Positions 3,688-29,680 of a stretch of DNA of 33,770 nt are shown in pieces (position 1 is the first letter of the stretch; every line of letters begins with the position of its first letter). Location: the IMG/VR virus record IMGVR_UViG_2724679140_000008, one strand, 5' to 3'. This DNA is from a virus. Taxonomy: Duplodnaviria; Heunggongvirae; Uroviricota; Caudoviricetes. A model generated the notes under the pieces. It was not told the origin of the DNA, ran no database searches, and saw nothing but the letters and a program-made list of their open reading frames with translations. The position numbers and the translations under genes were made by a program.

Positions 3688-4017
3688 CTATGCCACGACC
3701 TGTTCAAAATCTGCCGTTATGGTTACCCACAGCGCCCCCACGCTTGCCGACCATTTACGACAAACCACCCTGATCGGTTTCCAGTCATAAGGTGGCGTCC
3801 ACTGAAATGCACGGACGCCACCGTGCCGTTCCAGAAAGGCTTTTAAAGATGGGTGGTCACATTTACGAACACGTATCGTCACGCTGTAAGTCGACAACTG
3901 GTTATTCAGTCCCGCCGCACGACGCTGTTCATAACCATCGCCCAGCTTCACTGTCACCACTTTCGGCTCTGATACCACATTCATATCCGGGCGCACTTTC
4001 CAGTGAAACGTCTCCAT
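3688..4017 (-). CDS. M: Minor tail protein M
   Basis: 109 aa, METFHWKVRPDMNVVSEPKVVTVKLGDGYEQRRAAGLNNQ..., lambda gpM-like; its ATG overlaps the H stop. Confidence 0.92.
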   Translation of the reverse strand: METFHWKVRPDMNVVSEPKVVTVKLGDGYEQRRAAGLNNQLSTYSVTIRVRKCDHPSLKAFLERHGGVRAFQWTPPYDWKPIRVVCRKWSASVGALWVTITADFEQVVA

Positions 4018-7000
4018 TACCGATATGCTCCACTTAACCGACCACCATCACGGGCCTGCTGTTGCATAAAGTCCGCTGCCGCTTTTTTCCCGAGGTCATA
4101 AACCGCCTTCAGGGCAGCCGGACCTATCTGCCCGTTCGTGCCATCGTTATTGATCTCGATGTTGTACTGCGGGGAAAACATCGCCATACCTGACCCCCCA
4201 ATATCCGCCACAACCCCCAGCTTACCGTCAGCACCACGACGCAATGGCAGAATGGCTTCAGGTCCCGCTTCCCCCATCACACCCGCGCCTTTTGCAAAAG
4301 CAAAAAACGTCGGACGGTTAACCACCGTGCCACTGTAACGACTCAAATCAGCAGACTGATAAATCCCCCCATTGGCATTCAGGGAAAGGCTGCTGAGATC
4401 AAATCCCAGTACACTGCCAATCCCTTTTATCGATTTCATCATGGTTGCCTGCGCCAGGATTTTCGCCATATCTGACAGCACAGAAGAGGTGAAGGATTTG
4501 AAATTGAGTTTGCCGGTAGTGACAAAAGTTGCCAGGCCATTTCCCATGTTGCTGAAGGCTGACGAGAACACCTGTTCTGCTGTTTCTGCCGTATTATCTG
4601 CATCCACGGTAAAATCCTGAAATGCACGCAGGACTCCGTTTTTCCAGTTACCCTGCACAACTTCAAGCTGTTGCCAGTAACGGCGATTCTCATTCAGTTG
4701 TCGGTTCAGGCTCTCCGTCAGCGCCTGCTCGGCCTTTCTGTAGTCATCCGTGTTATATGTCCCTTTCTGCTCACTATCCCGCCTCAACTGCTCCAGCTGT
4801 TGCTGGTATTTCTGGCGAAGACTCAGTTGTACCTGATATCGCTGTCGCTGCTGATCACCCATACCCACCGTGGCGATATCCAGGTCATGTTGCTGACGCT
4901 GAGCGCGCTCTTCTTCAGCCAGTTGACTGGTCAGCTGAATTGTTTTTTTCTTCAGCTCGTTGAGTGCCGTCTGTTTCTGAAGCTCCTGCTGTTTTACATC
5001 CAGCAGCGTCAGTGCCTGAATCAGTTCATCTTTACGGGCCAGCACACTCTTTTCATCTGCCGTCAGTTTTTTCCCGTCCAGGTCGCTGATGCGCTGCTGC
5101 AGAGCCAGAAGCTGTTTATGCGCTTCTGTCATCCTTTCCGTGGCAGTGCCTGCTGACTGTCTGGCAGCAGCAATCTGTCCTTCCACCTGTGCCTGTTGCT
5201 GACTGTACTGCAGCAATAACCGGGTGGCCTCATCATTACGGGTTTCGCGTGTTTTTTTCTTACCGGATGCCAGGGCTTTCTCGTAACGTTCATTTTCACG
5301 TTGTATCGCCGCATCCCTGACAGCCTGATCGGCGTACTGCATGGCATTAATACGCGCAATTTCACGCTGATGTCGTGCTGCTTCCGTTTCATTCATCCGG
5401 TTCAGTGCAGCATTTTCAGCATTACGGCGTTTCTGTTGCTCCTGATAATTCCGCTCTGCCTGCTCTTTTGCATCCTGCAAATCCTTCTGGCGTTTTTTCT
5501 CCTGAAGATCGTTAAGACGCTGCTGATCGTATTCAACCTGAGAAGATGATGCCGTCCAGGGGAGTCTTTTCGCCCGCGACACTTTCTCCTGTAAAGCGGC
5601 AATCTGTTCATCCAGCGAGTCTTCACGACCAATATTCATGGCCGCATCCCAGAAACGACTCCACAAATCAGACAGATACTTCAGCGTACTGCCAAGCGCA
5701 TTGAGGTTATTATCAATATCCGCAGTACGCCGACCGGTTTCCTCTGCCAGTGCAGACATGGCTATCCGTGCAGCATCACTGGACCGCCCCTGCTCCCCAA
5801 GGACGCGTATCTGCTCAAGCTGAGTGGCAGTAAGAAAATGCAGCTCATTGTCCAGAGCCTTCGCGGCATTTACAGGATCATCCTTCAGCCGCTTAAACTG
5901 ATTTATGGTATCGCTGACCGACTGGCCAACCGATCGCTCCATCTGTGCGGCAACTCTCGCCACCATACCGATATCGTTTCCACGAAATGCACCACTCCCC
6001 ACCACCTGAGCCAGCGCACCGGCTGCAGCATGTTGCGTGATACCATTCCCGGAAATAGCACGACTGAGCGTCCACAGCTGCCCGGCAGTGACTCCGGCAT
6101 AATGCCCCGTCAGCGACAACTGGCGGTTAAATTCTTCCCCCTCCTTCTGACCGTCATACCAGGCTTTACCCAGACCATAGACGGCCGCGGCAATACCGCC
6201 AATAACCCAGCCAAGCATCATGCCTTTCGGTGACATCAGTGTGTCTATCCATCCGGCACGGTTAGCCAGCGTTATCCCGGATCCCCTCAGCGCCCCTAAA
6301 TTGCCGCGGGCCAGTTCACCTATCAGAACGCCTATCTCCTGGCGGGCTGCTGCACTTTTCAGACCCAGCGAATGCGTGGCTTTTCCTGCCTGCTCCATTT
6401 TGCGGATATACACTTCTGCAGCACTGCTTACCCCCAGCTGGGCTGCCTTAGCACGAAGCAACTCAGAAGATGAAAGATTCAGGCGGGTTGCCTGCTCTTT
6501 AAGCTGACGGATAAACGCCACTTTCTGTCGGGTAGCCTCTTCCTCAGCCTGTGTAAGAACACGGGTTTTCGCAGTAACCTCAGAAATCAGCGCCAGATAA
6601 TCCTGCTGACCAATCCCGCCACTGTTTCTGGCCTGTCGGATCTGCTGCTGAATACGCTGTAATTCCTGCAGCCCCGCACTGGCCTGTTTCACACTGTCAA
6701 TCTGACGATAAAACGCAGCAGCCGCTTTATCCTGAGCCTCCGCCAGAGCCATGGCCTGCGCCTGTTCCTCGCGCATTTTCTGACTCAGTGCCTCCATGCG
6801 CTGGCGGGTTTTCTCCACCTCGCGGGCCATGCGTTCATGAGCCTGTGCGTTCTTCTCCACCGTCTGCGTATGGACGGATGCGGCTGTTGCAGCCGAAGAA
6901 GCTGCCTGCGTTGTCTGCCGGGCGGCCTGAGTCTGACGCTCCATAAAACGCTGCATACGGGCAGAAGACCGTTCTGCATCGCTGGCTGCACCATTCAGAA

Positions 7001-7082
7001 GGTTTTTGATACGGGGAATTTCATTTTTAAACTCTGCCGCATCAATCCCCAAATCAATGACCAGGTTGGCTATCTGGTCCAT
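4017..7082 (-). CDS. H: Tail tape measure protein (H-like)
   Basis: About 1021 aa with a long coiled-coil middle and a lambda gpH-like C-terminus (EINNDGTNGQIGPAALKAVYD..., ...DGGRLSGAYR). Start placed at the ATG (MDQIANLVIDLG...) preceded by GGAGGTG; the ORF track extends to a TTG at 7112. Confidence 0.9.
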   Translation of the reverse strand: MDQIANLVIDLGIDAAEFKNEIPRIKNLLNGAASDAERSSARMQRFMERQTQAARQTTQAASSAATAASVHTQTVEKNAQAHERMAREVEKTRQRMEALSQKMREEQAQAMALAEAQDKAAAAFYRQIDSVKQASAGLQELQRIQQQIRQARNSGGIGQQDYLALISEVTAKTRVLTQAEEEATRQKVAFIRQLKEQATRLNLSSSELLRAKAAQLGVSSAAEVYIRKMEQAGKATHSLGLKSAAARQEIGVLIGELARGNLGALRGSGITLANRAGWIDTLMSPKGMMLGWVIGGIAAAVYGLGKAWYDGQKEGEEFNRQLSLTGHYAGVTAGQLWTLSRAISGNGITQHAAAGALAQVVGSGAFRGNDIGMVARVAAQMERSVGQSVSDTINQFKRLKDDPVNAAKALDNELHFLTATQLEQIRVLGEQGRSSDAARIAMSALAEETGRRTADIDNNLNALGSTLKYLSDLWSRFWDAAMNIGREDSLDEQIAALQEKVSRAKRLPWTASSSQVEYDQQRLNDLQEKKRQKDLQDAKEQAERNYQEQQKRRNAENAALNRMNETEAARHQREIARINAMQYADQAVRDAAIQRENERYEKALASGKKKTRETRNDEATRLLLQYSQQQAQVEGQIAAARQSAGTATERMTEAHKQLLALQQRISDLDGKKLTADEKSVLARKDELIQALTLLDVKQQELQKQTALNELKKKTIQLTSQLAEEERAQRQQHDLDIATVGMGDQQRQRYQVQLSLRQKYQQQLEQLRRDSEQKGTYNTDDYRKAEQALTESLNRQLNENRRYWQQLEVVQGNWKNGVLRAFQDFTVDADNTAETAEQVFSSAFSNMGNGLATFVTTGKLNFKSFTSSVLSDMAKILAQATMMKSIKGIGSVLGFDLSSLSLNANGGIYQSADLSRYSGTVVNRPTFFAFAKGAGVMGEAGPEAILPLRRGADGKLGVVADIGGSGMAMFSPQYNIEINNDGTNGQIGPAALKAVYDLGKKAAADFMQQQARDGGRLSGAYR

Positions 7083-7778
7083 AACGCACACCTCCGGAAA
7101 TACCTTCCCCAAGATGCATCAGTTCTTCGTCCGTTCGCTCCGGTATCCCGTTCTCTTCCGGTAAAAGGCTGAAATCAGCCACCGCAGCATCACTGCTGCC
7201 GGACACCATTCTCACGATCAATGCCTTCAGCGAGGCAAACTGCGCATCCATCCACACATCACTGAAGCTCTGCATCCGGAAATAATCACCCCACTCACCA
7301 AGCTCAGTGGCCGACATTTCCGACAGCATCCGCCGCCAGTCTGCCCGCCGGAACTCCCGGGCAAGCCGCATGACAAACTGCATTTCCCGCGTCAGGACTT
7401 TTCCGGCGTCAGCACCTCATGCTCCAAATCCCCGGCATTCTCAATGGCTCCCATACCGCTCAGCGACAGAACCATCTCTGCCCCCGCACCCAGGGCATCA
7501 TACGACCATGTTGTAATAACGGATGCGTAAAGCGTCTCAACATCCTGAGACTGTTCCGCATTCCACAGTGAGCGGGAAACCAGCCAGGCATTGATATCCA
7601 TCCCCATCCGCAGAAAAGCAATCTGTCGTTCAGCCTCCGGCAGTTCTCCCTCCCCGGCATCAAACTTTGCCGTTCGCTGCTGAACAAACGTCAGATATTC
7701 AATTCTCTGCAGCCCGGACAGCTCACTGAGCACCACGGACTGTTTTTCATAATTAAACGTGTCCTGTTTCAGAAACAT
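7054..7778 (-). CDS. Tail assembly chaperone G-T fusion, produced by a -1 programmed frameshift near the end of G
   Basis: The T-frame ORF 7054..7383 is in the -1 frame relative to G (from ORF-track coordinates). The end of G reads ...ACG CCG GAA AAG TCC TGA on the minus strand, with an A-rich run GGAAAAG at the position of lambda's GGGAAAG slip site. Confidence 0.6.
7392..7778 (-). CDS. G: Tail assembly chaperone G
   Basis: MFLKQDTFNYEKQSVVLSELSGLQRIEYL... resembles lambda gpG (MFLKTESFEHNGVTVTLSELSALQRIEHL). Start at the second of two tandem ATGs after GGAG; the ORF track extends to 7820. Confidence 0.85.
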   Translation of the reverse strand: MFLKQDTFNYEKQSVVLSELSGLQRIEYLTFVQQRTAKFDAGEGELPEAERQIAFLRMGMDINAWLVSRSLWNAEQSQDVETLYASVITTWSYDALGAGAEMVLSLSGMGAIENAGDLEHEVLTPEKS

Positions 7779-7838
7779 CATGTTCTCCACCTGCAAAAAA
7801 GCCCCGAATAACCGGGGCAAATGATGAGTATCGTCCTG

Positions 7839-8582
7839 TTAACCTGCTGCGCTGACAGTCACCGCAGCCACAGCCACAAAATTCCCGTCAGCGGTCATGC
7901 CCACAATGCTGACACTGCCCTGCTTCACGCCTTTTACCGTGGCCACAAGTCCGTTCAGGGTAACCGTGGCAGTCTGTGGATCTGACGAATGCACACTGAT
8001 CGCTTTGTCACTGGCTCCGTCAGGTTTTACTGTAAAGGTCAGCGTGGTGGTTGCTCCCACTTTTACACTGGCAGACGCCGGTGATACTGTCAGCCCGGTA
8101 ACGCTCACGGTTTCAGTGCCTTCCTCTGCCAGATACGGACGCCCCACACCGCTGATTTTCACAGTGCGGGTCATCACGTCTTTTGAGGCAATGGTTTTAC
8201 CCAGTGAGCTCAGCCAGCCACGGAAAACATCAACAGTGCCGTTGGGATATTTGATACGAAACGCGCAGACTTCACCGGAGTCGAACAACTGAACCAGTTT
8301 TTTCTGCCCGCTGTCACCCGGACGCCAGGCCAGCGTCGCCGAAGTATCACCAACGGATTTCTGCCCCTGGGTTGTCGTTTTCCAGTCTGCATCTTCATCA
8401 TCGAGATAAGTGTCATCTTCTGCATCAGCGGTCATTTCGCCAGGTTGCAGATCCTTCACCATCGCAAGACGCAGCCAGTCAGTGTCCGACAAAGGGTTCG
8501 CAAACGCATCGCCGTTGCCGGTATACATCCAGAACGTCGTCCCCGCACCTTTCGTCTTTGCCAGTGGATTTGGTGTGGTCAT
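7839..8582 (-). CDS. V: Major tail tube protein V with C-terminal Ig-like domain
   Basis: MTTPNPLAKTKGAGTTFWMYTGNGDAFANPLSDTDW... matches lambda gpV; AAGGAGGT RBS upstream of this ATG. The ORF track extends to 8657. Confidence 0.92.
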   Translation of the reverse strand: MTTPNPLAKTKGAGTTFWMYTGNGDAFANPLSDTDWLRLAMVKDLQPGEMTADAEDDTYLDDEDADWKTTTQGQKSVGDTSATLAWRPGDSGQKKLVQLFDSGEVCAFRIKYPNGTVDVFRGWLSSLGKTIASKDVMTRTVKISGVGRPYLAEEGTETVSVTGLTVSPASASVKVGATTTLTFTVKPDGASDKAISVHSSDPQTATVTLNGLVATVKGVKQGSVSIVGMTADGNFVAVAAVTVSAAG

Positions 8583-9856: not shown

Positions 9857-10172
9857 TGAGTTTTACCGGCACTTCTTCTGCACTGGTTCCGGCATCTGCC
9901 CAGACAACCCCGACCAGCGGCTCAGAGCCGCTGTTAGTCAGCTGAACTTTTCCTGACTTCAGATAAACCTTCTTACCCGTTTTCATGTCATCCGTTTTCA
10001 GCTTAGGCAGCATAAACACACCTTCGGTTATGCCGTCGCCTGTTTCTCCCTGTGGAATATCGGTCAGCGCCACCGCAAAAACATCCCCCACCTGCACCAG
10101 ATCTCCGCTGCTGATGGCTGCACTGGCAACAATCGCCACCGTTTTTCCTTCTTCTACAAAATTCTTTGCCAT
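9849..10172 (-). CDS. DUF2190-type small head protein (putative head decoration/stabilisation)
   Basis: MAKNFVEEGKTVAIVASAAISSGDLVQVGDVFAVALTDIPQGETGDG...; typical partner of ClpP-capsid fusion head modules. Start at the ATG after GGAG; the ORF track extends to 10217. Confidence 0.65.
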   Translation of the reverse strand: MAKNFVEEGKTVAIVASAAISSGDLVQVGDVFAVALTDIPQGETGDGITEGVFMLPKLKTDDMKTGKKVYLKSGKVQLTNSGSEPLVGVVWADAGTSAEEVPVKLNV

Positions 10173-10258
10173 AACTGTCTCCGCACAGCCCCGTTCAGGG
10201 GCTGATTTCAGGTACAAAAAAAGCCCTTACGGGCCATCAGAGTTGTTGTCTGCGACGT

Positions 10259-12217
10259 TTACGCCGTACATTTCACCAGGCCGCGGTGATCAACTGGCGC
10301 AACACCAGCGTCAATACGCACTTTCGTTGTCACGCCATCCACACTGAAGCCCTCCATCTGATCAATATATGGCGTATCCACACCGTTGAGATAAGCCACT
10401 TCAATCGTATCGGAGCCTTTGGACGCAGCCAGGTAGAAGGTGGTCTGGCTGTTATCATCAAGACGAGGCTCTGCAATAACGGTCGCAAAATCTTTCACCG
10501 GGTTAATAATACCGGCGTTAATGTCAGCCCCCTTGACACTTGAGGAGCGAATGACCTGGTTAGCAACAGACTCCATCGCCGTCGGTACCAGTACGAACGC
10601 AGGACGAATATTCAGATGACGCTCACCCTCTTTCTGAACGCGCATCAACTGGCGGGCTTTATCCAGCGATGCCACGTCCATTGCCGCGCTCTCCAGTACG
10701 TTTGCATGTTTCGCTTTATCGAACAGACTTACATTATCTGTGGAGATTTTCGGGTTAGACGTCAGAATGGCATAAACCAGATCGGCAATAGTGGATTTCG
10801 CCGCACGGCCCAGCTTCATCGGGACATCGGTCAGCATATTCAGATCATCATTGATAATGGCCTGACGGGTGATACTGAACAGCTCGCCATAGGTCGCCAG
10901 TGCAATAGTGGCCTGTTTATCTCCGGTGGTGACGTATTTATATTCTGCCCCTTCACGCACCTGACGCAGAGCACTGAAGCCCCCCATACCCACACGATGG
11001 GCAATTTTAAAATCAGACAACTGACCTTTCCGCGTCCACTGTTCATAGGTTTCAGGGGCATCTTCCCAGCCCTGCAGAATGGCTTTGTTCGCAACATCCA
11101 GCAGAATATTACCGAAGTCAGACGTACTGTGTGTGAACGCCGCACCGACCATCTGCATCGGGTTATAACTGGAAACACCAATACCACGTTCAGTCAGTGA
11201 CATACGGGCATATTCACGCAGGGTCATCCCGTTGTAGACATTATCACGTTCAGTTTTTTCAAACCCGGCGCGCGCCATCAGCGCCTGGCGGATCCCGTCC
11301 CCCACAAAATTACCGTTACCGGCATAAATATGAGCCGGGGTATTTTTATTGGATGGCGTGGACTCGCGCCCCATCTCGTTCAACAGCTTTTCGCGGGCCT
11401 GCTCCAGCGAACATTCAGGATCGGCAAGACACTGAGCCTGCAACGACTGATAACGCCCGCCAAACATGGCAAACAGATCATTAATACCGTTTACACGCGC
11501 TTTTTGCTCTGCCAGGACCTGCGCACGGATGCTGTTTTCATCCACCACGGGTGCTGCTGCCTGCACTGGCGTCCGGGAGGCTGCAGGTCCATCATCCTGT
11601 ACGCGTGGAGCACTGTTGCGTGGCGGAGTAATCATATTTCGAATGGATTCCGGCATCTTTTTAAATTCCTCTGTACGTTTTGACTGAATACATGCCATTG
11701 CCTTAACGGCTGGTGTCACCTGATCAGCAAATCCCTGTGCCAGACATTCGGCACCGGACATCCAGGTCTCATCCGCCAGCATGGCAGCAATTTCATCGGT
11801 GGTTTTCCCGGTTTTCTGTGCATAAGCGGGTAACAGAACCGCCTCAACTTTATCGAGCAGGTCGGCATAGGTGCGCATGTCCTCCGCATCACCGCCCGTA
11901 AAGCCAAATGGTTTATGAATCATCATGAAGGAGTTTTCCGGCATAATGACCGGGTTTCCCACCATCGCAATGACCGACGCCATTGACGCCGCCACACCGT
12001 CGACATAAACGGTAATGGACGCACCATGTGTTTTCAGTGCATTAAAAATGGCGATGCCTTCAAAGACATCGCCACCCGGTGAATTAATATGGAGATTAAT
12101 GTGGGTGATATCGCCCAGTGCATTCAGATCACTGATAAACTGCTTCGCCGTAACACCCCAGAAACCAATCTCGTCATAAATATAAATATCCGCGTCACTC
12201 TGGTGACCTGCCTGCAT
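10259..12217 (-). CDS. Prohead protease (ClpP/S14-like) fused to major capsid protein
   Basis: The N-terminal region has a ClpP-like motif (HINLHINSPGGDVFEGIAIFNALK...SITVYVDGVAASMASVIAM) followed by a long capsid-like C-terminal domain. Start taken at MQAGHQSDADIYIYDEIGFWG shortly after the portal stop; the ORF track extends to 12478. Confidence 0.8.
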   Translation of the reverse strand: MQAGHQSDADIYIYDEIGFWGVTAKQFISDLNALGDITHINLHINSPGGDVFEGIAIFNALKTHGASITVYVDGVAASMASVIAMVGNPVIMPENSFMMIHKPFGFTGGDAEDMRTYADLLDKVEAVLLPAYAQKTGKTTDEIAAMLADETWMSGAECLAQGFADQVTPAVKAMACIQSKRTEEFKKMPESIRNMITPPRNSAPRVQDDGPAASRTPVQAAAPVVDENSIRAQVLAEQKARVNGINDLFAMFGGRYQSLQAQCLADPECSLEQAREKLLNEMGRESTPSNKNTPAHIYAGNGNFVGDGIRQALMARAGFEKTERDNVYNGMTLREYARMSLTERGIGVSSYNPMQMVGAAFTHSTSDFGNILLDVANKAILQGWEDAPETYEQWTRKGQLSDFKIAHRVGMGGFSALRQVREGAEYKYVTTGDKQATIALATYGELFSITRQAIINDDLNMLTDVPMKLGRAAKSTIADLVYAILTSNPKISTDNVSLFDKAKHANVLESAAMDVASLDKARQLMRVQKEGERHLNIRPAFVLVPTAMESVANQVIRSSSVKGADINAGIINPVKDFATVIAEPRLDDNSQTTFYLAASKGSDTIEVAYLNGVDTPYIDQMEGFSVDGVTTKVRIDAGVAPVDHRGLVKCTA

Positions 12218-12230
12218 CCTGAACCAGGAA

Positions 12231-13739
12231 TTATTCTTCGGACTGGTCGTCGGTGTGCTGCGGCTCCTGTCGTTTCGTTGCGGCACTGCTGCCTCCTTTA
12301 TCACTGGCCGGATCGGTATCAAATACCAGATCCAGCTTGCGGTTTTCATCAATTTCGGCCTTGCGCCGACGTTTGACATCATCCGGATTACGACCACCTG
12401 CACGTACCCAGTCTGATTCTGTCGCCGCTCCACCACGAATCTGAATTTTCCAGGCCTCAGCCTCCTTAACAGGGTCAATCCACGGCATCACCGGTCCGGA
12501 ATACACCGCGGTATACAGTGAAGAACGGTCCAGATCGCGGGGTAGCCTGATAACACCGGATGCCACAGCCTGTTTCAGCCAGGCACGGTACATCGGGCGG
12601 GTGACGGCACCAATAAACCAGTCCTGCAGGATCAGGTAGCCATCAGTAGATTCAACCAGCTCCTGACGCTGGGCGCTGTAAGTGCCGTTATAGTTGCGCG
12701 CTGTACTGGAAAAACTCAGACGACTGCCCGCAGCCACGGCACGCAACTGACCATTACGAAAAGTTTCAAGGTTAGGATTGGGGCGATCCGACTTCACCAT
12801 TCCGATTTCTTCGCCGGGTTTCAGATCGTCGTAAATAATGCCTGGCTGAATGGTAAGCTCGCGTTCATTCTCCTTGCTGTCATTACCATCCGTTTCATAG
12901 CTCTGTCCGTCGCCTTTCCGGATGTACATCCCCAGAGCAGCGGCGATCCTTGCTGCAGTCAGCTCAGAATCTTCATACTCTTTCAGAGCACTGAGGCGGA
13001 TCAGCACACCGGACAACAAAGACGTCCCGCGCATCTGGTGCAGACGGCGAACAAATTTAAGATGCAGCATTCGCTCTGCATCCACTTCTTTGGTTTCCAT
13101 CTGCCGCCCGGATACGGGACGGCTTTTATACACCAGATATTTTTCGGGACGCCCCCAGTCATCAACAAACACGCCCTGATTCAGCCTGTTGCTCTCATCA
13201 CTGGTCATGGGAATAAAGTCCGGCTCGAGCGCCTCCAGCCAGAAATGAACACCGGCAGAAGGCGTCAGGCTGTTTATGCGCCCGGAAACCATCTGGGCAA
13301 ACACCTCACCATCGCGCAGCCAGGTACGCAGCATCAGACGTTCCAGCATCGGACGGGTAAACTGCCCGGTGACCTCCGGACTGACAGACCATTCACTCCA
13401 TCGGGTACGTATCTCCGCTGCCAGATCACGGGCAATGGCCCCATTGCGTAATACCGGATGTGGCTCGACAATAATCCCGTTTTTCCCCACCACCCGTTCT
13501 TCCAGCTTGTCAAATACACCAATGACCAGATCGTGGTTGTTATCAAGGTAACGGGCCTGCTCACGTAACGACACGGCCCCGTACTGGCTTAACTGGTCGG
13601 CAGTTCGGCTCTCCCGTCGGGCTTTGTGTGTCCGCGTCGTTTTTACGGCCTCATAAGCCTGGATCACCGCGCGGGAACGCAGCCTTGCCGCTTTCCATCC
13701 TGGTGAAAAAACGCCAATCACATCATCAAGAATTGCCAT
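12231..13739 (-). CDS. Portal protein
   Basis: About 500 aa at the portal position between the W-like gene and the protease/capsid gene; called from synteny and size, direct similarity to lambda gpB not established by eye. Start at MAILDDVIGVF..., overlapping the upstream stop in TGATG with GAGG upstream; the ORF track extends to 13811. Confidence 0.85.
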   Translation of the reverse strand: MAILDDVIGVFSPGWKAARLRSRAVIQAYEAVKTTRTHKARRESRTADQLSQYGAVSLREQARYLDNNHDLVIGVFDKLEERVVGKNGIIVEPHPVLRNGAIARDLAAEIRTRWSEWSVSPEVTGQFTRPMLERLMLRTWLRDGEVFAQMVSGRINSLTPSAGVHFWLEALEPDFIPMTSDESNRLNQGVFVDDWGRPEKYLVYKSRPVSGRQMETKEVDAERMLHLKFVRRLHQMRGTSLLSGVLIRLSALKEYEDSELTAARIAAALGMYIRKGDGQSYETDGNDSKENERELTIQPGIIYDDLKPGEEIGMVKSDRPNPNLETFRNGQLRAVAAGSRLSFSSTARNYNGTYSAQRQELVESTDGYLILQDWFIGAVTRPMYRAWLKQAVASGVIRLPRDLDRSSLYTAVYSGPVMPWIDPVKEAEAWKIQIRGGAATESDWVRAGGRNPDDVKRRRKAEIDENRKLDLVFDTDPASDKGGSSAATKRQEPQHTDDQSEE

Positions 13740-16055: not shown

Positions 16056-16583
16056 CTAGAGACTCTCTCCTTCCTCATCAGGAATTAATTCAGCAGCACA
16101 AGCCTCGTAGGATTTTTCCTGAAGAGTGTATCGCAGGTCATCAATGGCCTGCTGTACAACGCCGACGGCCTGAGGAGTCAGGGCGCAATCGCGTTCAAGA
16201 ACATCCGGAATTGTCTCCAGAACCTGGACGACAGCCTTTCTCATGGACGAATAGACGATGACTACTTCATCAACTGGGATGAGTTTTCGCTGCTCCTTTT
16301 CCAGCTTGATCCTTTCATTTTCAGACTGGTACCAGTCCTTTCTCTCTTTCGGCTCCATACGGGATGGATCATGAACAGAGTCTGCTGCCTCATGCTTCAC
16401 ACTAAACAGGGCGGGCCCGACATGCTGCAGGGCGTAAACGGGGTTCCCCCTGACAGTCGCAGCCACAGGAGTGTTGGCCGCGAGGAGCCGTTTTTTTACT
16501 GTGTCCCGGTGAAGCCCAAAGGCCTCGGCGATTTTAAAAACACTCCAGTAATAAGCATCACCGATCCCGCTCACATTTGACAT
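16056..16583 (-). CDS. Terminase small subunit (Nu1-like)
   Basis: About 176 aa immediately upstream of the large terminase, with N-terminal HTH-like WSVFKIAEAFGLHRDTVKKRL. Start at MSNVSG...; the ORF track extends to 16595. Confidence 0.8.
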   Translation of the reverse strand: MSNVSGIGDAYYWSVFKIAEAFGLHRDTVKKRLLAANTPVAATVRGNPVYALQHVGPALFSVKHEAADSVHDPSRMEPKERKDWYQSENERIKLEKEQRKLIPVDEVVIVYSSMRKAVVQVLETIPDVLERDCALTPQAVGVVQQAIDDLRYTLQEKSYEACAAELIPDEEGESL

Positions 16584-24451: not shown

Positions 24452-25540
24452 TTACCCAAGCACGCCAGTTGCAAAGGCGTGATCAAGAAAACGAAAAATT
24501 AAATCAACCTGAGAACCATGCTTTTCTTCGAACGCCAGAGGATCCGCATGAAGCTCGTTGTGATGCTCCCGACACAGCGGTAGCGTGAAAATATCGTGAG
24601 ATTTTGTCCCCATTCCGCCCTGACCATGACCAATCAGGTGATGGGGATCGTCGGCTGGCTTACCACAACACGCACACGGCTGTGTCTTCACCCAGCGTTT
24701 GTATTTCTCGTTAACCCAGCGGCGACGTTTAGGTCGTTTCATGAAAGATTCCGGAGACTCAGGATCAACGGCAATGCTGACCACCGTCTTTTCCTGTGGT
24801 GGGTTCTGTTGCTGGTGGGCGTGAGGCAGCGGCGCAAGATTTTTTGTGCGCTGTTTCAGTATGCTGGTGGCGGTCTGCTCTCCCGGTACGATGTCGCTTT
24901 CACGGTACATTGAGCGGATTTTTTCCGCACGCAACCCCAGCGAACGACGTAATACCGCTTCCGGTAGCGCGTCCGCCACCTGATTGCAGACCGCCCACCA
25001 GGATAATTCAGCCAGAGATAATTCCCGCTCCTGCGTACCGCTTATTGCGTGACGGATGACGTCAATCACCCATGCTGTCAGATTTTGTTGAGCAAGCAGC
25101 TCCAGTGATTCCGATGTCTGGTCACGCAGTTGGTTGTCGCAGTGCCAGCACAACACCATTGCGCCGGTACCATAACGGTGAATGACTGTTTCAGTGTGAT
25201 GGTAATCGCCATTAGGCCACTGGCAGGATGTAACATGACGTAATAGCCAGTCGGACAATGCGCCAACGCCGCCAGCAGCACGAATCACCCGTTCGTTACT
25301 AAAAAACGGCAGCAATGTTTTGTCTTCCGCCAGCGGCTGGCGAACGGCAGGAACGACTCCGGATGGCAGATTACGCATGCTTTTTGGTTCCGGTTCCACC
25401 AGCACTCGAGGATTATGAAATATCTGTATGGATTCACGGCCCGGCTTAAGGACCACCAGCCCAAGCTCAGGCACCAGAACAGGTCTAAGTAATACCCGCA
25501 CGTTACCTCCAGATCCGTTGCTGGAAAGTGCGGGACGCAC
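24452..25540 (-). CDS. ydfU: YdfU-like DUF968 protein with an HNH-like Cys/His motif
   Basis: 362-aa ORF with a GTG start; C-terminal ...QPCACCGKPADDPHHLIGHGQGG...CREHHNELH. The true start is uncertain because the first 38 nt overlap the upstream ORF. Confidence 0.75.
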   Translation of the reverse strand: MRPALSSNGSGGNVRVLLRPVLVPELGLVVLKPGRESIQIFHNPRVLVEPEPKSMRNLPSGVVPAVRQPLAEDKTLLPFFSNERVIRAAGGVGALSDWLLRHVTSCQWPNGDYHHTETVIHRYGTGAMVLCWHCDNQLRDQTSESLELLAQQNLTAWVIDVIRHAISGTQERELSLAELSWWAVCNQVADALPEAVLRRSLGLRAEKIRSMYRESDIVPGEQTATSILKQRTKNLAPLPHAHQQQNPPQEKTVVSIAVDPESPESFMKRPKRRRWVNEKYKRWVKTQPCACCGKPADDPHHLIGHGQGGMGTKSHDIFTLPLCREHHNELHADPLAFEEKHGSQVDLIFRFLDHAFATGVLG

Positions 25541-28164: not shown

Positions 28165-29680
28165 TATCCCCGGTAAAACAAGTAACAAACCACCCGAAAA
28201 TGAACACCAGAAACGCGACTTAAGAATCTACCCTATGAATGGATATGCACTCAACCGAATCGATCTTGGTTTCAATCTATTTTATCGGGATCAGGCTTCT
28301 TTTTAGGTAACTTCGGGGGCTTAACTTGCTGATGACTTTGCGTTCGGCGCGTAAGCCAGGGATGGTCAGCTTTAGATTTAACATAGTATTTTGAGCGTAA
28401 ATCAATACGGGCATTATCCACTCGTTCATGGACACTCTTTTCATCATCCAGTGGTATAGGCTCCGGGCCATCAACATACTTTTCCCAGCCCAGCGCTTTC
28501 CCGTCATACAGAACGTTAATTTCACCGTCAAAGTTCTCACATACAGTAACAACCGAATGCCTAAGTCGATATCCCCGGCCCTCACTGCGTACCTGAAACG
28601 CACTGCTTTTGTACTGGAAAGTGAGATTTTTAGACAGAACGCGCTTCGCCTGTAGGCTGAAGATATAACCCAGTTCCTCTTCAGAATGGTGCACATCAAG
28701 ATGAGCATTATCAGTAGTACGAGGCGACGTAGCGAACCGGTTGTTATAGGCTTCAATAAAGGTCGGCAACCATGCATTTGCTGTTTCAATATCACTGATA
28801 TTCTGAAGCCGCATTTCTTTGACCAGCCTGTCCTGTAGTGTCTGATTGGCGCGCTCTACCCGCCCTTTTGCCTGCGGGCTGTTGGCATGGATTGGCTCGA
28901 TGCCCAGTGTCTTTATCGCACGAGTGAACTGGGTCAGCTCACCTTCCCGCTCTGGGTTATTTACCCTGAATATACTGTGTCTATCAGAGTAGAGAGCGAG
29001 CGGTACGCCATGATCATTAAGGTAACCCCGGAGGGTTTCCATGTAAGCCCGGGTTGTTTAAGCAGGCACAAAACGCAACGCCATCAACGCACTGGTGGCA
29101 TCATCAATGAAAACGATCAGTGTACATCTGGGGCCTCGATTTTCAAACCAGTCATGAGGTGAGCCATCAATCTGGATCAGTTCACCGTAAGATGGTCGTC
29201 GCATGCGGCGTTGATATATACGGGCAATTTTACGACGGCGTTCACGCCATAACCCCTCTTCTATCATCCACTTTCTGAGAGTTTCAACGGATAAAGATAA
29301 ACCGTGTATCTCGCGCAATTTTTCGCACGCAAACGTAGGTCCAAAATCAGCGTAACGGCCTTTGAGGAGTGAAATTACTGTTGCTCTGAATTCAGTAGAA
29401 AAGGAATTATTAGGACGCTTTCCACGTCGGTGGGAAACCAGACCAGAAGGCCCTTCATTTCTATACCGTTGCACCAGACGTTTAACCTGCCGAATAGAAA
29501 TGCCAATGCGTGCCGCAGCTTGTTCCTGAGTAATATGTCGATTAATTGACTCCTGAATAATCTGAAGTCGGTGGAGTTCCTTATGACTCATCGTAACAGT
29601 CTCTTTGATCATGAAAAATCCCCCAGAGAATTGTCTGGGGACATTTTAGAATGGTTCAAAGGGGACATTACAGCTTGGTG
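28165..29680 (-). mobile_element. Insertion sequence carrying the interrupted transposase (boundaries approximate)
   Basis: A single transposase gene with short flanks; terminal inverted repeats could not be defined confidently by eye. Confidence 0.35.
28272..29612 (-). pseudogene. IS transposase (DDE integrase-core type with N-terminal HTH; IS481/ISNCY-like) interrupted by an in-frame TAA
   Basis: ORFs 29058..29612 (184 aa, HTH) and 28272..29042 (256 aa, catalytic region) are in the same frame (both low ends are multiples of 3) and separated only by a TAA at 29058-29060 plus 5 codons. Read through, they give about 446 aa. Confidence 0.8.

What the first reader, a model, noticed from the sequence alone, without database searches (positions are those of the whole stretch)
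7380..7410. G-T tail chaperone frameshift with a non-canonical slip site
T is in the -1 frame relative to G, as in lambda. The 3' end of G reads ACG CCG GAA AAG TCC TGA, so the slip would be on GGAAAAG (Glu/Lys codons re-pairing as GGA AAA) rather than lambda's GGGAAAG. This is a natural variant of a programmed frameshift site. Exact position is +/-2 nt.
Basis: partly seen in the sequence, partly recalled or inferred. Interest (0 to 1): 0.4.

Follow-up and report, generated by a model that had tools for sequence, protein, structure and literature searches.

The report
Lambda-type G-T tail chaperone frameshift site
This is the ordinary programmed -1 ribosomal frameshift that joins the two tail-assembly chaperone genes (G and T) of a lambda-like E. 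coli prophage; its GGAAAAG slip site differs from lambda's by one base but is already annotated in phages N15 and phi80.

Summary
Gene G (7778..7392, Pfam Phage_TAC_2) ends ACG CCG GAA AAG TCC TGA. The T reading frame (Pfam Phage_tail_T) is in the -1 frame and is open only from 7416. Any shift must therefore occur within eight codons, and G_GAA_AAG (7404..7398) is the only re-pairing site there.

Comparison supports function. In 18 diverse G-T loci (median 65% nt identity), CCGGAAAAG is the longest invariant run in the whole 824-column alignment, directly after 30 columns with no invariant position. The predicted 242-aa fusion aligns colinearly with lambda G-T and phi80 gpG-T, and the junction lysines coincide.

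The "non-canonical variant" is not new. GenBank records of N15 and phi80 mark exactly GGAAAAG as the "slippery sequence for -1 translational frameshift" in the homologous genes. Fels-1, HK225, mEp237 and mEp043 carry it too.

The module occurs in 1847 of 5426 complete E. coli genomes, where G and T are annotated as separate genes without slippage. I found no conserved downstream RNA structure. An upstream SD-like GAGGUG is only suggestive.

One point remains open: in a reconstituted E. coli system G GAA AAG behaved as a poorly slippery control, so the real efficiency here is unmeasured.

Verdict: real, ordinary, already known. Low interest.

The parts
7839..8582 (-). Major tail tube protein gene (lambda V-like), immediately upstream of G
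   Evidence: Pfam Phage_TTP_12 E=1.2e-66 plus Big_2 E=5e-13. Annotated as major tail protein in the near-identical phages Ayreon, mEp460 and Tritos.
7801..7818 (-). Terminator-like hairpin (GCCCCGGTTATTCGGGGC followed by T6) between V and G
   Evidence: Consensus scan. The equivalent site is annotated as a rho-independent terminator in mEp460 and Ayreon. It is context only and not part of the frameshift signal.
7392..7778 (-). Gene G, tail assembly chaperone. It is 128 aa from ATG 7778, or 129 aa if the adjacent ATG at 7781 is used. The stop codon TGA is at 7394..7392.
   Evidence: Pfam PF06894 Phage_TAC_2 E=1.6e-40. Homologues start MFLK. PGAP calls the 387-nt version in an identical E. coli prophage.
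7417..7419 (-). TGA stop codon in the T (-1) frame. It marks the upstream limit of the zone where a -1 shift can be productive.
   Evidence: Three-frame translation. The overlap is 25 nt in this lineage.
7413..7418 (-). SD-like element GAGGUG, 8 nt upstream of the heptamer. It is a possible weak stimulator and this is inferred only.
   Evidence: Duplex with the 16S 3' end is -9.3 kcal/mol. The calibrated rank is only the 8th percentile of 21-nt segments in G-T. It is present in many but not all clade members and is absent from phi80, N15 and lambda.
7398..7404 (-). Slip heptamer G_GAA_AAG. The zero-frame codons are CCG GAA AAG and the -1-frame codons are GGA AAA.
   Evidence: Direct reading. 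It is the only re-pairing site in the 8-codon permissive zone. It is invariant in 62 distinct junction contexts of the clade. CCGGAAAAG is the longest invariant run in the G-T alignment. The same heptamer is annotated as the slippery sequence in N15 and phi80.
7054..7398 (-). T segment decoded in the -1 frame after the shift (114 aa, VLTREMQF...GGVRYGPDSQPGH). The stop codon is at 7056..7054. The predicted G-T fusion is 241-242 aa.
   Evidence: Pfam PF06223 Phage_tail_T E=5e-15. The fusion was built. It is colinear with lambda G-T (33% identity, E=1e-41) and phi80 gpG-T (37% identity, E=3e-49).
4017..7082 (-). Tape measure protein gene (lambda H-like). It overlaps the end of T by 29 nt.
   Evidence: Pfam TMP_2 E=2.9e-49, Tape_meas_lam_C E=4.7e-22 and TMP_4 E=1.1e-16. 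The start at 7082 follows PGAP and phage annotations.

Best explanation
This is the lambda-type G/G-T programmed -1 ribosomal frameshift of an mEp460/cdtI-like lambdoid prophage of E. coli.

Most ribosomes translate G to its TGA and make the 128-aa chaperone. A small fraction slip back one nucleotide. At that moment tRNA-Glu on GAA is in the P site and tRNA-Lys on AAG is in the A site, on G_GAA_AAG (7404..7398, minus strand).

tRNA-Lys re-pairs cognately with AAA. tRNA-Glu re-pairs with GGA through G:C, G.U and A:U. Translation then continues in the T frame, giving a fusion of about 242 aa (…LTPEK-VLTREMQF…).

By analogy with lambda, the G part binds the tape measure protein and the T part recruits the major tail protein. 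Neither ends up in the virion.

Shown here: gene identities, synteny, frame relation, uniqueness of the slip site, its extreme nucleotide conservation, and colinearity of the fusion with lambda and phi80 G-T. Inferred: that slippage actually happens, its efficiency, and the two-tRNA mechanism.
For: - G is PF06894 and T is PF06223. V and H flank them.
- T is in the -1 frame and open only from 7416, so the shift must occur within eight codons. Only GAA-AAG can re-pair there.
- In 18 diverse G-T loci (pairwise nt identity 59-99%, median 65%, 28.9% of columns invariant), the longest invariant run of all 824 columns is CCGGAAAAG, and 14 of 15 columns are invariant in CCGGAAAAGYCCTGA. None of the 30 columns just upstream is invariant (alignment A2).
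- At protein level the G C-terminus PEK is invariant after a hypervariable linker.
- The synonymous third base of the Pro/Ala codon (the first G of the heptamer), GAA rather than GAG, and AAG rather than AAA are fixed in every lineage. This fits a two-tRNA heptamer rather than a bare A_AAG tetramer.
- The window's first ATG in the T frame (7383) is not conserved. Fels-1 has CTG, Salmonella relatives have ATT or CGG, and gene callers pick different starts.
- The fusion aligns end to end with lambda G-T and phi80 gpG-T, with PEK|V opposite AGK|V and AEK|A.
- N15 and phi80 records annotate GGAAAAG as the -1 slippery sequence in the homologous genes.
- Heptamer position 3 toggles G/A in two different junction architectures, implying functional equivalence with lambda's GGGAAAG.
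- Background: the lambda G:GT ratio of about 30:1 and the conservation of G-T frameshifting are described in PMC5009743. A_AA.G is the most shift-prone tetramer in E. coli (PMC4066793).
Against: - There is no direct expression evidence for this phage group, and none of the deposited records annotates slippage.
- In a reconstituted E. coli system the sequence AUG GAA AAG was chosen as the unfavourable, 'less slippery' case. It gave mainly 0-frame product, because of the second-position mismatch of tRNA-Glu on GGA (PMC6924986).
- No significant or conserved downstream structure was found that could compensate. Folding z-scores were -1.07 and +0.13, and the RNAalifold consensus was -10.2 kcal/mol with only -0.98 from covariation.
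- The upstream SD-like element is not statistically compelling.
- G_GAA_AAG also occurs in frame three more times in other ORFs of the window, so it cannot be strongly slippery by itself.
Confidence: 0.88

Rival explanations
1. T is made as a separate protein by independent initiation at ATG 7383 or the next ATG, as the database records annotate it. Under this view the heptamer is conserved for protein-coding reasons only.
For: Every deposited record of this phage group and PGAP annotate G and T as separate CDSs. An ATG exists at 7383, 8 nt after the G stop.
Against: - ATG 7383 is not conserved in the clade. Relatives have CTG, ATT or CGG at that position, and gene callers choose starts 9 to 63 nt after the G stop.
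- No SD-like sequence precedes either ATG.
- The T frame stays open back to the heptamer in every relative.
- Synonymous positions of CCG GAA AAG are invariant while the preceding 30 nt have no invariant column.
- In lambda, the family prototype, T sequence is made as the G-T fusion (PMC5009743).
Confidence: 0.05
2. The shift uses only the A_AAG tetramer. In this model only tRNA-Lys needs to re-pair, with no contribution from re-pairing of the neighbouring tRNA-Glu, and slippage may be helped by the stop codon one codon downstream.
For: A_AA.G is the most shift-prone tetramer in E. coli (PMC4066793). tRNA-Glu re-pairing to GGA has a middle-position mismatch (PMC6924986). Some relatives (Ewingella L092, L129, L130) have only A_AAA directly before a stop codon and no heptamer. 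In this clade the stop is invariably one codon after the site.
Against: The first G of the heptamer is a synonymous third position of Pro or Ala, and it is invariant in all lineages and in the phi80/N15 clade. That would be unnecessary for a tetramer-only slip. In phi80, N15 and lambda the stop lies five codons downstream, so stop proximity is not general. Tetramers without a stimulator were barely above background (PMC4066793).
Confidence: 0.06
3. The frame change is made at the RNA level, by transcriptional slippage of RNA polymerase on the A run, rather than by the ribosome.
For: The site contains a run of four A residues.
Against: Four A's are far shorter than the homopolymer runs associated with productive transcriptional slippage, which are typically seven to nine or more (established knowledge, reviewed in PMC5009743). 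The conserved unit is the in-frame heptamer including the flanking G's, not the length of the A run.
Confidence: 0.01

Closest known systems
Bacteriophage lambda G / G-T programmed -1 frameshift (slip site G_GGA_AAG)
   Same: The Pfam families are the same (PF06894 and PF06223) and the V-G-T-H synteny is the same. T is in the -1 frame. The A-site codon is the same (AAG->AAA, tRNA-Lys). The junction lysine aligns exactly. No conserved downstream structure was found here.
   Different: Heptamer position 3 is A rather than G. The P-site tRNA is therefore tRNA-Glu re-pairing to GGA with a middle G.U, instead of tRNA-Gly re-pairing GGA->GGG. The G stop is one codon after the site rather than five. 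G-T identity is only 33%. T is shorter, 114 aa against 144 aa.
Phage N15 genes 14/15 and phage phi80 gpG / gpG-T
   Same: The heptamer GGAAAAG is identical and sits at the homologous position. It is explicitly annotated as 'slippery sequence for -1 translational frameshift' (NC_001901 10027-10033; FN582354 10194-10200). The phi80 G-T fusion is colinear with the one predicted here (37% identity, E=3e-49).
   Different: The preceding codon is GCG (Ala) rather than CCG (Pro). The zero-frame stop lies five codons downstream rather than one. There is no SD-like element upstream. G proteins are 30-35% identical.
Salmonella prophage Fels-1 and E. coli phages mEp460, cdtI, Ayreon, phi458 and Tritos
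   Same: They belong to the same clade. The junction CCGGAAAAGYCCTGA is identical. The G-T region is 97.5-99.3% identical in DNA for the E. coli phages. Fels-1 G is 54% identical.
   Different: Nothing substantive differs. These records simply do not annotate the frameshift.
E. coli dnaX -1 frameshift (A_AAA_AAG with upstream SD-like element and downstream hairpin)
   Same: The A-site event is the same (tRNA-Lys AAG->AAA). This window may have an SD-like element at a comparable aligned spacing: the GAGG core is followed by 10 nt before the heptamer.
   Different: The genes are unrelated. dnaX has cognate P-site re-pairing and a strong downstream hairpin, giving high efficiency. Here no hairpin was found and the SD-like element is not conserved.

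Membership tests
Lambda-type tail assembly chaperone G / G-T programmed -1 frameshift | The upstream ORF is homologous to lambda gpG | tested here: met
   PF06894 Phage_TAC_2, E=1.6e-40, 138 bits against a cut-off of 27. tblastn reaches lambda, phi80 and N15-like G genes.
Lambda-type tail assembly chaperone G / G-T programmed -1 frameshift | The downstream ORF is homologous to lambda T | tested here: met
   PF06223 Phage_tail_T, E=5e-15, 56 bits against a cut-off of 25.9. The fusion aligns with lambda G-T through the GGVR[FY]GP motif.
Lambda-type tail assembly chaperone G / G-T programmed -1 frameshift | The gene pair lies between the major tail protein gene and the tape measure gene | tested here: met
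   V is at 7839..8582 (Phage_TTP_12, E=1.2e-66). H is at 4017..7082 (TMP_2, Tape_meas_lam_C).
Lambda-type tail assembly chaperone G / G-T programmed -1 frameshift | The second ORF is in the -1 frame, overlaps the 3' end of the first, and has no conserved start of its own | tested here: met
   The frame offset and 25-nt overlap are shown. ATG 7383 is not conserved in relatives, and gene callers pick varying starts.
Lambda-type tail assembly chaperone G / G-T programmed -1 frameshift | A slippery sequence lies in frame within the overlap, and it is conserved | tested here: met
   G_GAA_AAG is at 7404..7398. CCGGAAAAG is the longest invariant run in the G-T alignment. The identical heptamer is annotated as the slippery sequence in N15 and phi80.
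Lambda-type tail assembly chaperone G / G-T programmed -1 frameshift | The heptamer fits the canonical X_XXY_YYZ pattern with cognate re-pairing of both tRNAs | tested here: not met
   G_GAA_AAG has X_XX = G_GA, so tRNA-Glu would face GGA with a second-position G.U (PMC6924986). This is a property of the strict motif definition, not of the family. N15 and phi80 share the deviation.
Lambda-type tail assembly chaperone G / G-T programmed -1 frameshift | A G-T fusion protein is actually produced at a low percentage of G | not testable with these tools
   This needs a reporter assay, western blot, mass spectrometry or ribosome profiling.
dnaX/IS911-type stimulated -1 frameshift (SD-like element upstream and/or RNA structure downstream) | A conserved downstream hairpin or pseudoknot | tested here: not met
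   Folding z-scores were -1.07 (98 nt) and +0.13 (58 nt). The RNAalifold consensus of 14 diverse sequences was -10.2 kcal/mol with a covariation term of -0.98, and the predicted pairs include the slip site itself.
dnaX/IS911-type stimulated -1 frameshift (SD-like element upstream and/or RNA structure downstream) | A conserved SD-like element about 10-14 nt upstream of the heptamer | tested here: inconclusive
   GAGGUG at 7418..7413 gives -9.3 kcal/mol, but its calibrated rank is 0.08. The clade median is 0.16, with 8 of 18 at or below 0.1. phi80, N15 and lambda have a median of 0.70.

The most novel reading that the evidence does not exclude
G_GAA_AAG behaved as a poorly slippery control in vitro. 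This clade may nevertheless reach a lambda-like G:GT ratio through context-specific help. Two candidates are the SD-like element 8-14 nt upstream that many clade members carry, and the invariant YCC-TGA stop one codon downstream. Alternatively, these phages may assemble tails with a much lower GT:G ratio than lambda's roughly 1:30. Either outcome would refine the rules for P-site re-pairing in bacterial -1 frameshifting.
Probability: 0.25. Interest if true: 0.3.

Novelty: already known. Interest (0 to 1): 0.12.

Why it matters
It matters little scientifically. G-T frameshifting is a textbook case, and this exact heptamer is already annotated in N15 and phi80.

Its practical value is for annotation. 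The module is present in about a third of complete E. coli genomes (1847 of 5426). Both there and in the deposited phage records, T is annotated as a free-standing protein with an arbitrary start instead of as a G-T slippage product.

One small open point remains for frameshifting specialists. A heptamer used as an 'unfavourable' control in vitro (PMC6924986) is the strictly conserved natural site in a large branch of the family. Its in vivo efficiency appears unmeasured in the literature I could search.

Tried and rejected
1. Downstream stimulatory RNA structure. Single-sequence folds were not better than shuffles, and the consensus fold of 14 diverse relatives was weak with negligible covariation. 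Rejected.

2. Upstream SD-like stimulator. A first look was encouraging. When calibrated against all 21-nt segments of G-T, the window ranks only at 0.08. The element is not universal in the clade and is absent from phi80, N15 and lambda. Kept only as a suggestion.

3. Independent initiation of T. Rejected because no start or SD is conserved.

4. Transcriptional slippage. Rejected because the A run is only 4 nt.

5. Other slip sites. None is possible, because the T frame is closed by a TGA at 7419..7417.

6. Broader sampling. A profile scan of viral contigs with alignment A1 returned only the same near-identical loci, so that scan was wasted. The genome-contig scan gave 13 loci. Diversity came mainly from the look-up of encoding contigs, P0078 relatives and named phages.

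7. Literature. No open-access paper in the library names GGAAAAG as a phage slip site. Xu et al. 2004 and Baranov et al. 2006 are not held. I therefore could not check whether GGAAAAG has been verified experimentally in any phage.

Full report
**Observation**

The genes around the finding lie on the minus strand. Read 5'->3' on that strand, 7418..7392 is GAG GTG CTG ACG CCG GAA AAG TCC TGA.

The upstream ORF runs from ATG 7778 (or the adjacent ATG at 7781) to its stop at 7394..7392. The downstream ORF is listed as 7054..7383 from its first ATG, and it is offset by +2, that is -1. That frame carries a TGA at 7419..7417 and is open from 7416. A productive -1 shift can therefore happen only while one of eight codons is being decoded: GAG GTG CTG ACG CCG GAA AAG TCC.

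Within that zone only GAA-AAG offers re-pairing. AAG->AAA is cognate for tRNA-Lys, and GAA->GGA gives G:C, G.U and A:U for tRNA-Glu. The heptamer G_GAA_AAG is at 7404..7398.

The bare heptamer is not rare. It occurs 11 times in the window against 5.65 expected, and four times in frame among 6804 codons of the long ORFs. Its occurrence in this particular 8-codon zone has a chance probability of about 0.5%.

**What the genes are**

- The upstream protein matches Pfam PF06894 (lambda tail assembly chaperone G), E=1.6e-40.
- The -1-frame product matches PF06223 (minor tail protein T), E=5e-15.
- The gene before G is a lambda-type tail tube protein with a C-terminal Big_2 domain.
- The gene after T is a lambda-type tape measure protein.

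The order is therefore V-G-T-H, as in lambda.

The 801-nt G-T region is 97.5-99.3% identical to the E. coli phages 500465-3, phi458, Ayreon, mEp460, Tritos and cdtI. It is present in 1847 of 5426 complete E. coli genomes. None of the records I inspected annotates a frameshift. G and T are given as separate CDSs.

**Comparative evidence that the heptamer is functional**

In 83 close relatives the junction is invariant.

G homologues at 54-94% identity, from E. coli and Salmonella, have a hypervariable linker of about 25 residues followed by an invariant C-terminal P-E-K.

At DNA level, every member of this clade that I could fetch carries CCG GAA AAG YCC TGA. That set comprises 62 distinct 240-nt junction contexts and includes Fels-1.

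I aligned 18 diverse G-T loci (pairwise nt identity 59-99%, median 65%; 28.9% of columns invariant):
- The longest invariant run in all 824 columns is CCGGAAAAG.
- The 15-nt window with the most invariant columns (14 of 15) is CCGGAAAAGTCCTGA.
- None of the 30 columns just upstream is invariant (see also A2).

The synonymous positions are fixed: the third base of the Pro codon, GAA rather than GAG, and AAG rather than AAA. A protein-only constraint does not predict this.

The ATG at 7383 is not conserved, and gene callers choose different T starts in different relatives.

The conceptual fusion (…LTPEK|VLTREMQF…, 242 aa) aligns end to end with lambda G-T (33% identity, E=1e-41) and with phi80's annotated gpG-T (37% identity, E=3e-49). 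The junction lysines are superposed.

**Comparison with what is known**

Lambda has GCG GGA AAG, the canonical G_GGA_AAG. The one-base variant GGAAAAG is not new:
- The N15 record marks 10027-10033 as 'slippery sequence for -1 translational frameshift', and that stretch reads GGAAAAG.
- The phi80 record does the same at 10194-10200 and gives a joined gpG-T CDS.
- HK225, mEp237, mEp043, Fels-1 and chromosomal relatives in Superficieibacter and Symbiopectobacterium carry it too.

Across the family I saw four kinds of junction:
- G_GGA_AAG: lambda, ev017, an Stx2a phage, and Serratia/Symbiopectobacterium.
- G_GAA_AAG: this clade, phi80, N15-like phages and mEp043.
- A_AAA_AAG: VT1-Sakai.
- GCA AAA TAG: an Ewingella group.

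Both G_GGA_AAG and G_GAA_AAG occur with the stop one codon downstream and with the stop five codons downstream. The G/A toggle at heptamer position 3 has therefore happened more than once, and the two forms look interchangeable.

**Mechanism**

The best-supported reading is two-tRNA -1 slippage, as in lambda. Lambda's tRNA-Gly (GGA->GGG) is replaced by tRNA-Glu (GAA->GGA).

I looked for stimulators:
- The 58 and 98 nt downstream do not fold better than shuffles (z = +0.13 and -1.07).
- The consensus fold of 14 diverse relatives is weak, at -10.2 kcal/mol with a covariation term of -0.98.
- Upstream, the window has GAGGUG (7418..7413), complementary to the 16S 3' end at -9.3 kcal/mol. It lies 8 nt before the heptamer, and the GAGG core is followed by 10 nt, close to the dnaX arrangement.

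When calibrated against all 21-nt segments of G-T, the upstream element ranks only at the 8th percentile. The clade median is 0.16, with 8 of 18 at or below 0.1. phi80, N15 and lambda have nothing comparable, with a median of 0.70. I treat it as a suggestion only.

**A caveat worth stating**

Peng et al. 2019 (PMC6924986) used AUG GAA AAG, which is G_GAA_AAG, as the unfavourable, 'less slippery' sequence in reconstituted E. coli translation. It gave mainly 0-frame product, whereas G GGA AAG slipped readily at low EF-G.

Sharma et al. 2014 (PMC4066793) found A_AA.G to be the best tetramer in E. coli, but barely above background without a stimulator.

Lambda needs a G:GT ratio of about 30:1 (PMC5009743). 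A low intrinsic efficiency may therefore be sufficient. Either way, the efficiency of the natural GGAAAAG sites appears unmeasured in the literature I could search. The key papers, Xu et al. 2004 and Baranov et al. 2006, are not held.

**Rivals**

- Independent initiation of T is unlikely: there is no conserved start or SD, the frame stays open back to the heptamer, and synonymous positions are conserved.
- A tetramer-only slip, possibly helped by the nearby stop, is a mechanistic sub-variant. It is disfavoured by the invariant first G of the heptamer and by the distant stop in phi80 and N15.
- Transcriptional slippage is implausible on four A's.

**Verdict**

The finding is real and its interpretation is essentially right. 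It is an ordinary member of a textbook system, and the 'non-canonical' heptamer is already annotated in homologous genes of N15 and phi80.

- Novelty: already known.
- Interest: low (0.12).
- Useful by-products: an annotation correction (G-T should be a slippage product in this very common prophage module), and the small open question of how efficiently G_GAA_AAG shifts in vivo.

Noticed in passing
L092 1880-1911 (Ewingella americana); L129 and L130 (IMG/VR contigs), G/T junction: In these relatives G ends …CCA CTG GCA AAA TAG. The homologous T frame is open in -1, but the overlap contains no G_GRA_AAG heptamer. The only re-pairing option is tRNA-Lys slipping AAA->AAA directly before the stop codon (A_AAA_UAG). 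That would be a possible 'shifty stop' P-site slip, and a fourth kind of junction in this gene family.
   Followed up: partly
Loci L091-L105 compared with window 7392-7406: Heptamer position 3 toggles between G (lambda type) and A (this type) in two different junction layouts. In one the stop is one codon after the heptamer, and in the other it is five codons after. This suggests repeated interconversion of GGGAAAG and GGAAAAG.
   Followed up: partly
window 7801-7818 (-): A terminator-like hairpin, GCCCCGGTTATTCGGGGC followed by TTTTTT, lies between the major tail gene V and G. It is annotated as a rho-independent terminator in mEp460 and Ayreon. It could lower expression of G-T-H relative to V.
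   Followed up: no
window 7413-7418 (-): An SD-like GAGGUG lies 8 nt upstream of the slip heptamer. Comparable elements (GGAGG, AGGTGA, AGGAG) sit 6-16 nt upstream in many but not all clade members, and are absent from phi80, N15 and lambda. The statistics are inconclusive.
   Followed up: yes
window 16296-16302, 24788-24794, 28479-28485 (all -): There are three further in-frame G_GAA_AAG heptamers inside other long ORFs of the prophage. I did not check their -1 frames. Their presence suggests the heptamer is not strongly avoided, and so is not very slippery on its own.
   Followed up: no
window 10259-12478 (-): A long ORF (739 aa from the listed TTG start) lies in the head-gene region. I noticed it while reading the ORF list and ran no family search on it. 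From recalled similarity only, it looked to me like a head protease fused to a major capsid protein.
   Followed up: no
E. coli genomes and phage records (e.g. NZ_CP025913 3221860-3222584; NC_019716 8788-9515): PGAP and the submitters annotate T as a free-standing CDS starting at whichever ATG is available, with no ribosomal slippage. The module occurs in 1847 of 5426 complete E. coli genomes, so this looks like a systematic annotation gap.
   Followed up: partly
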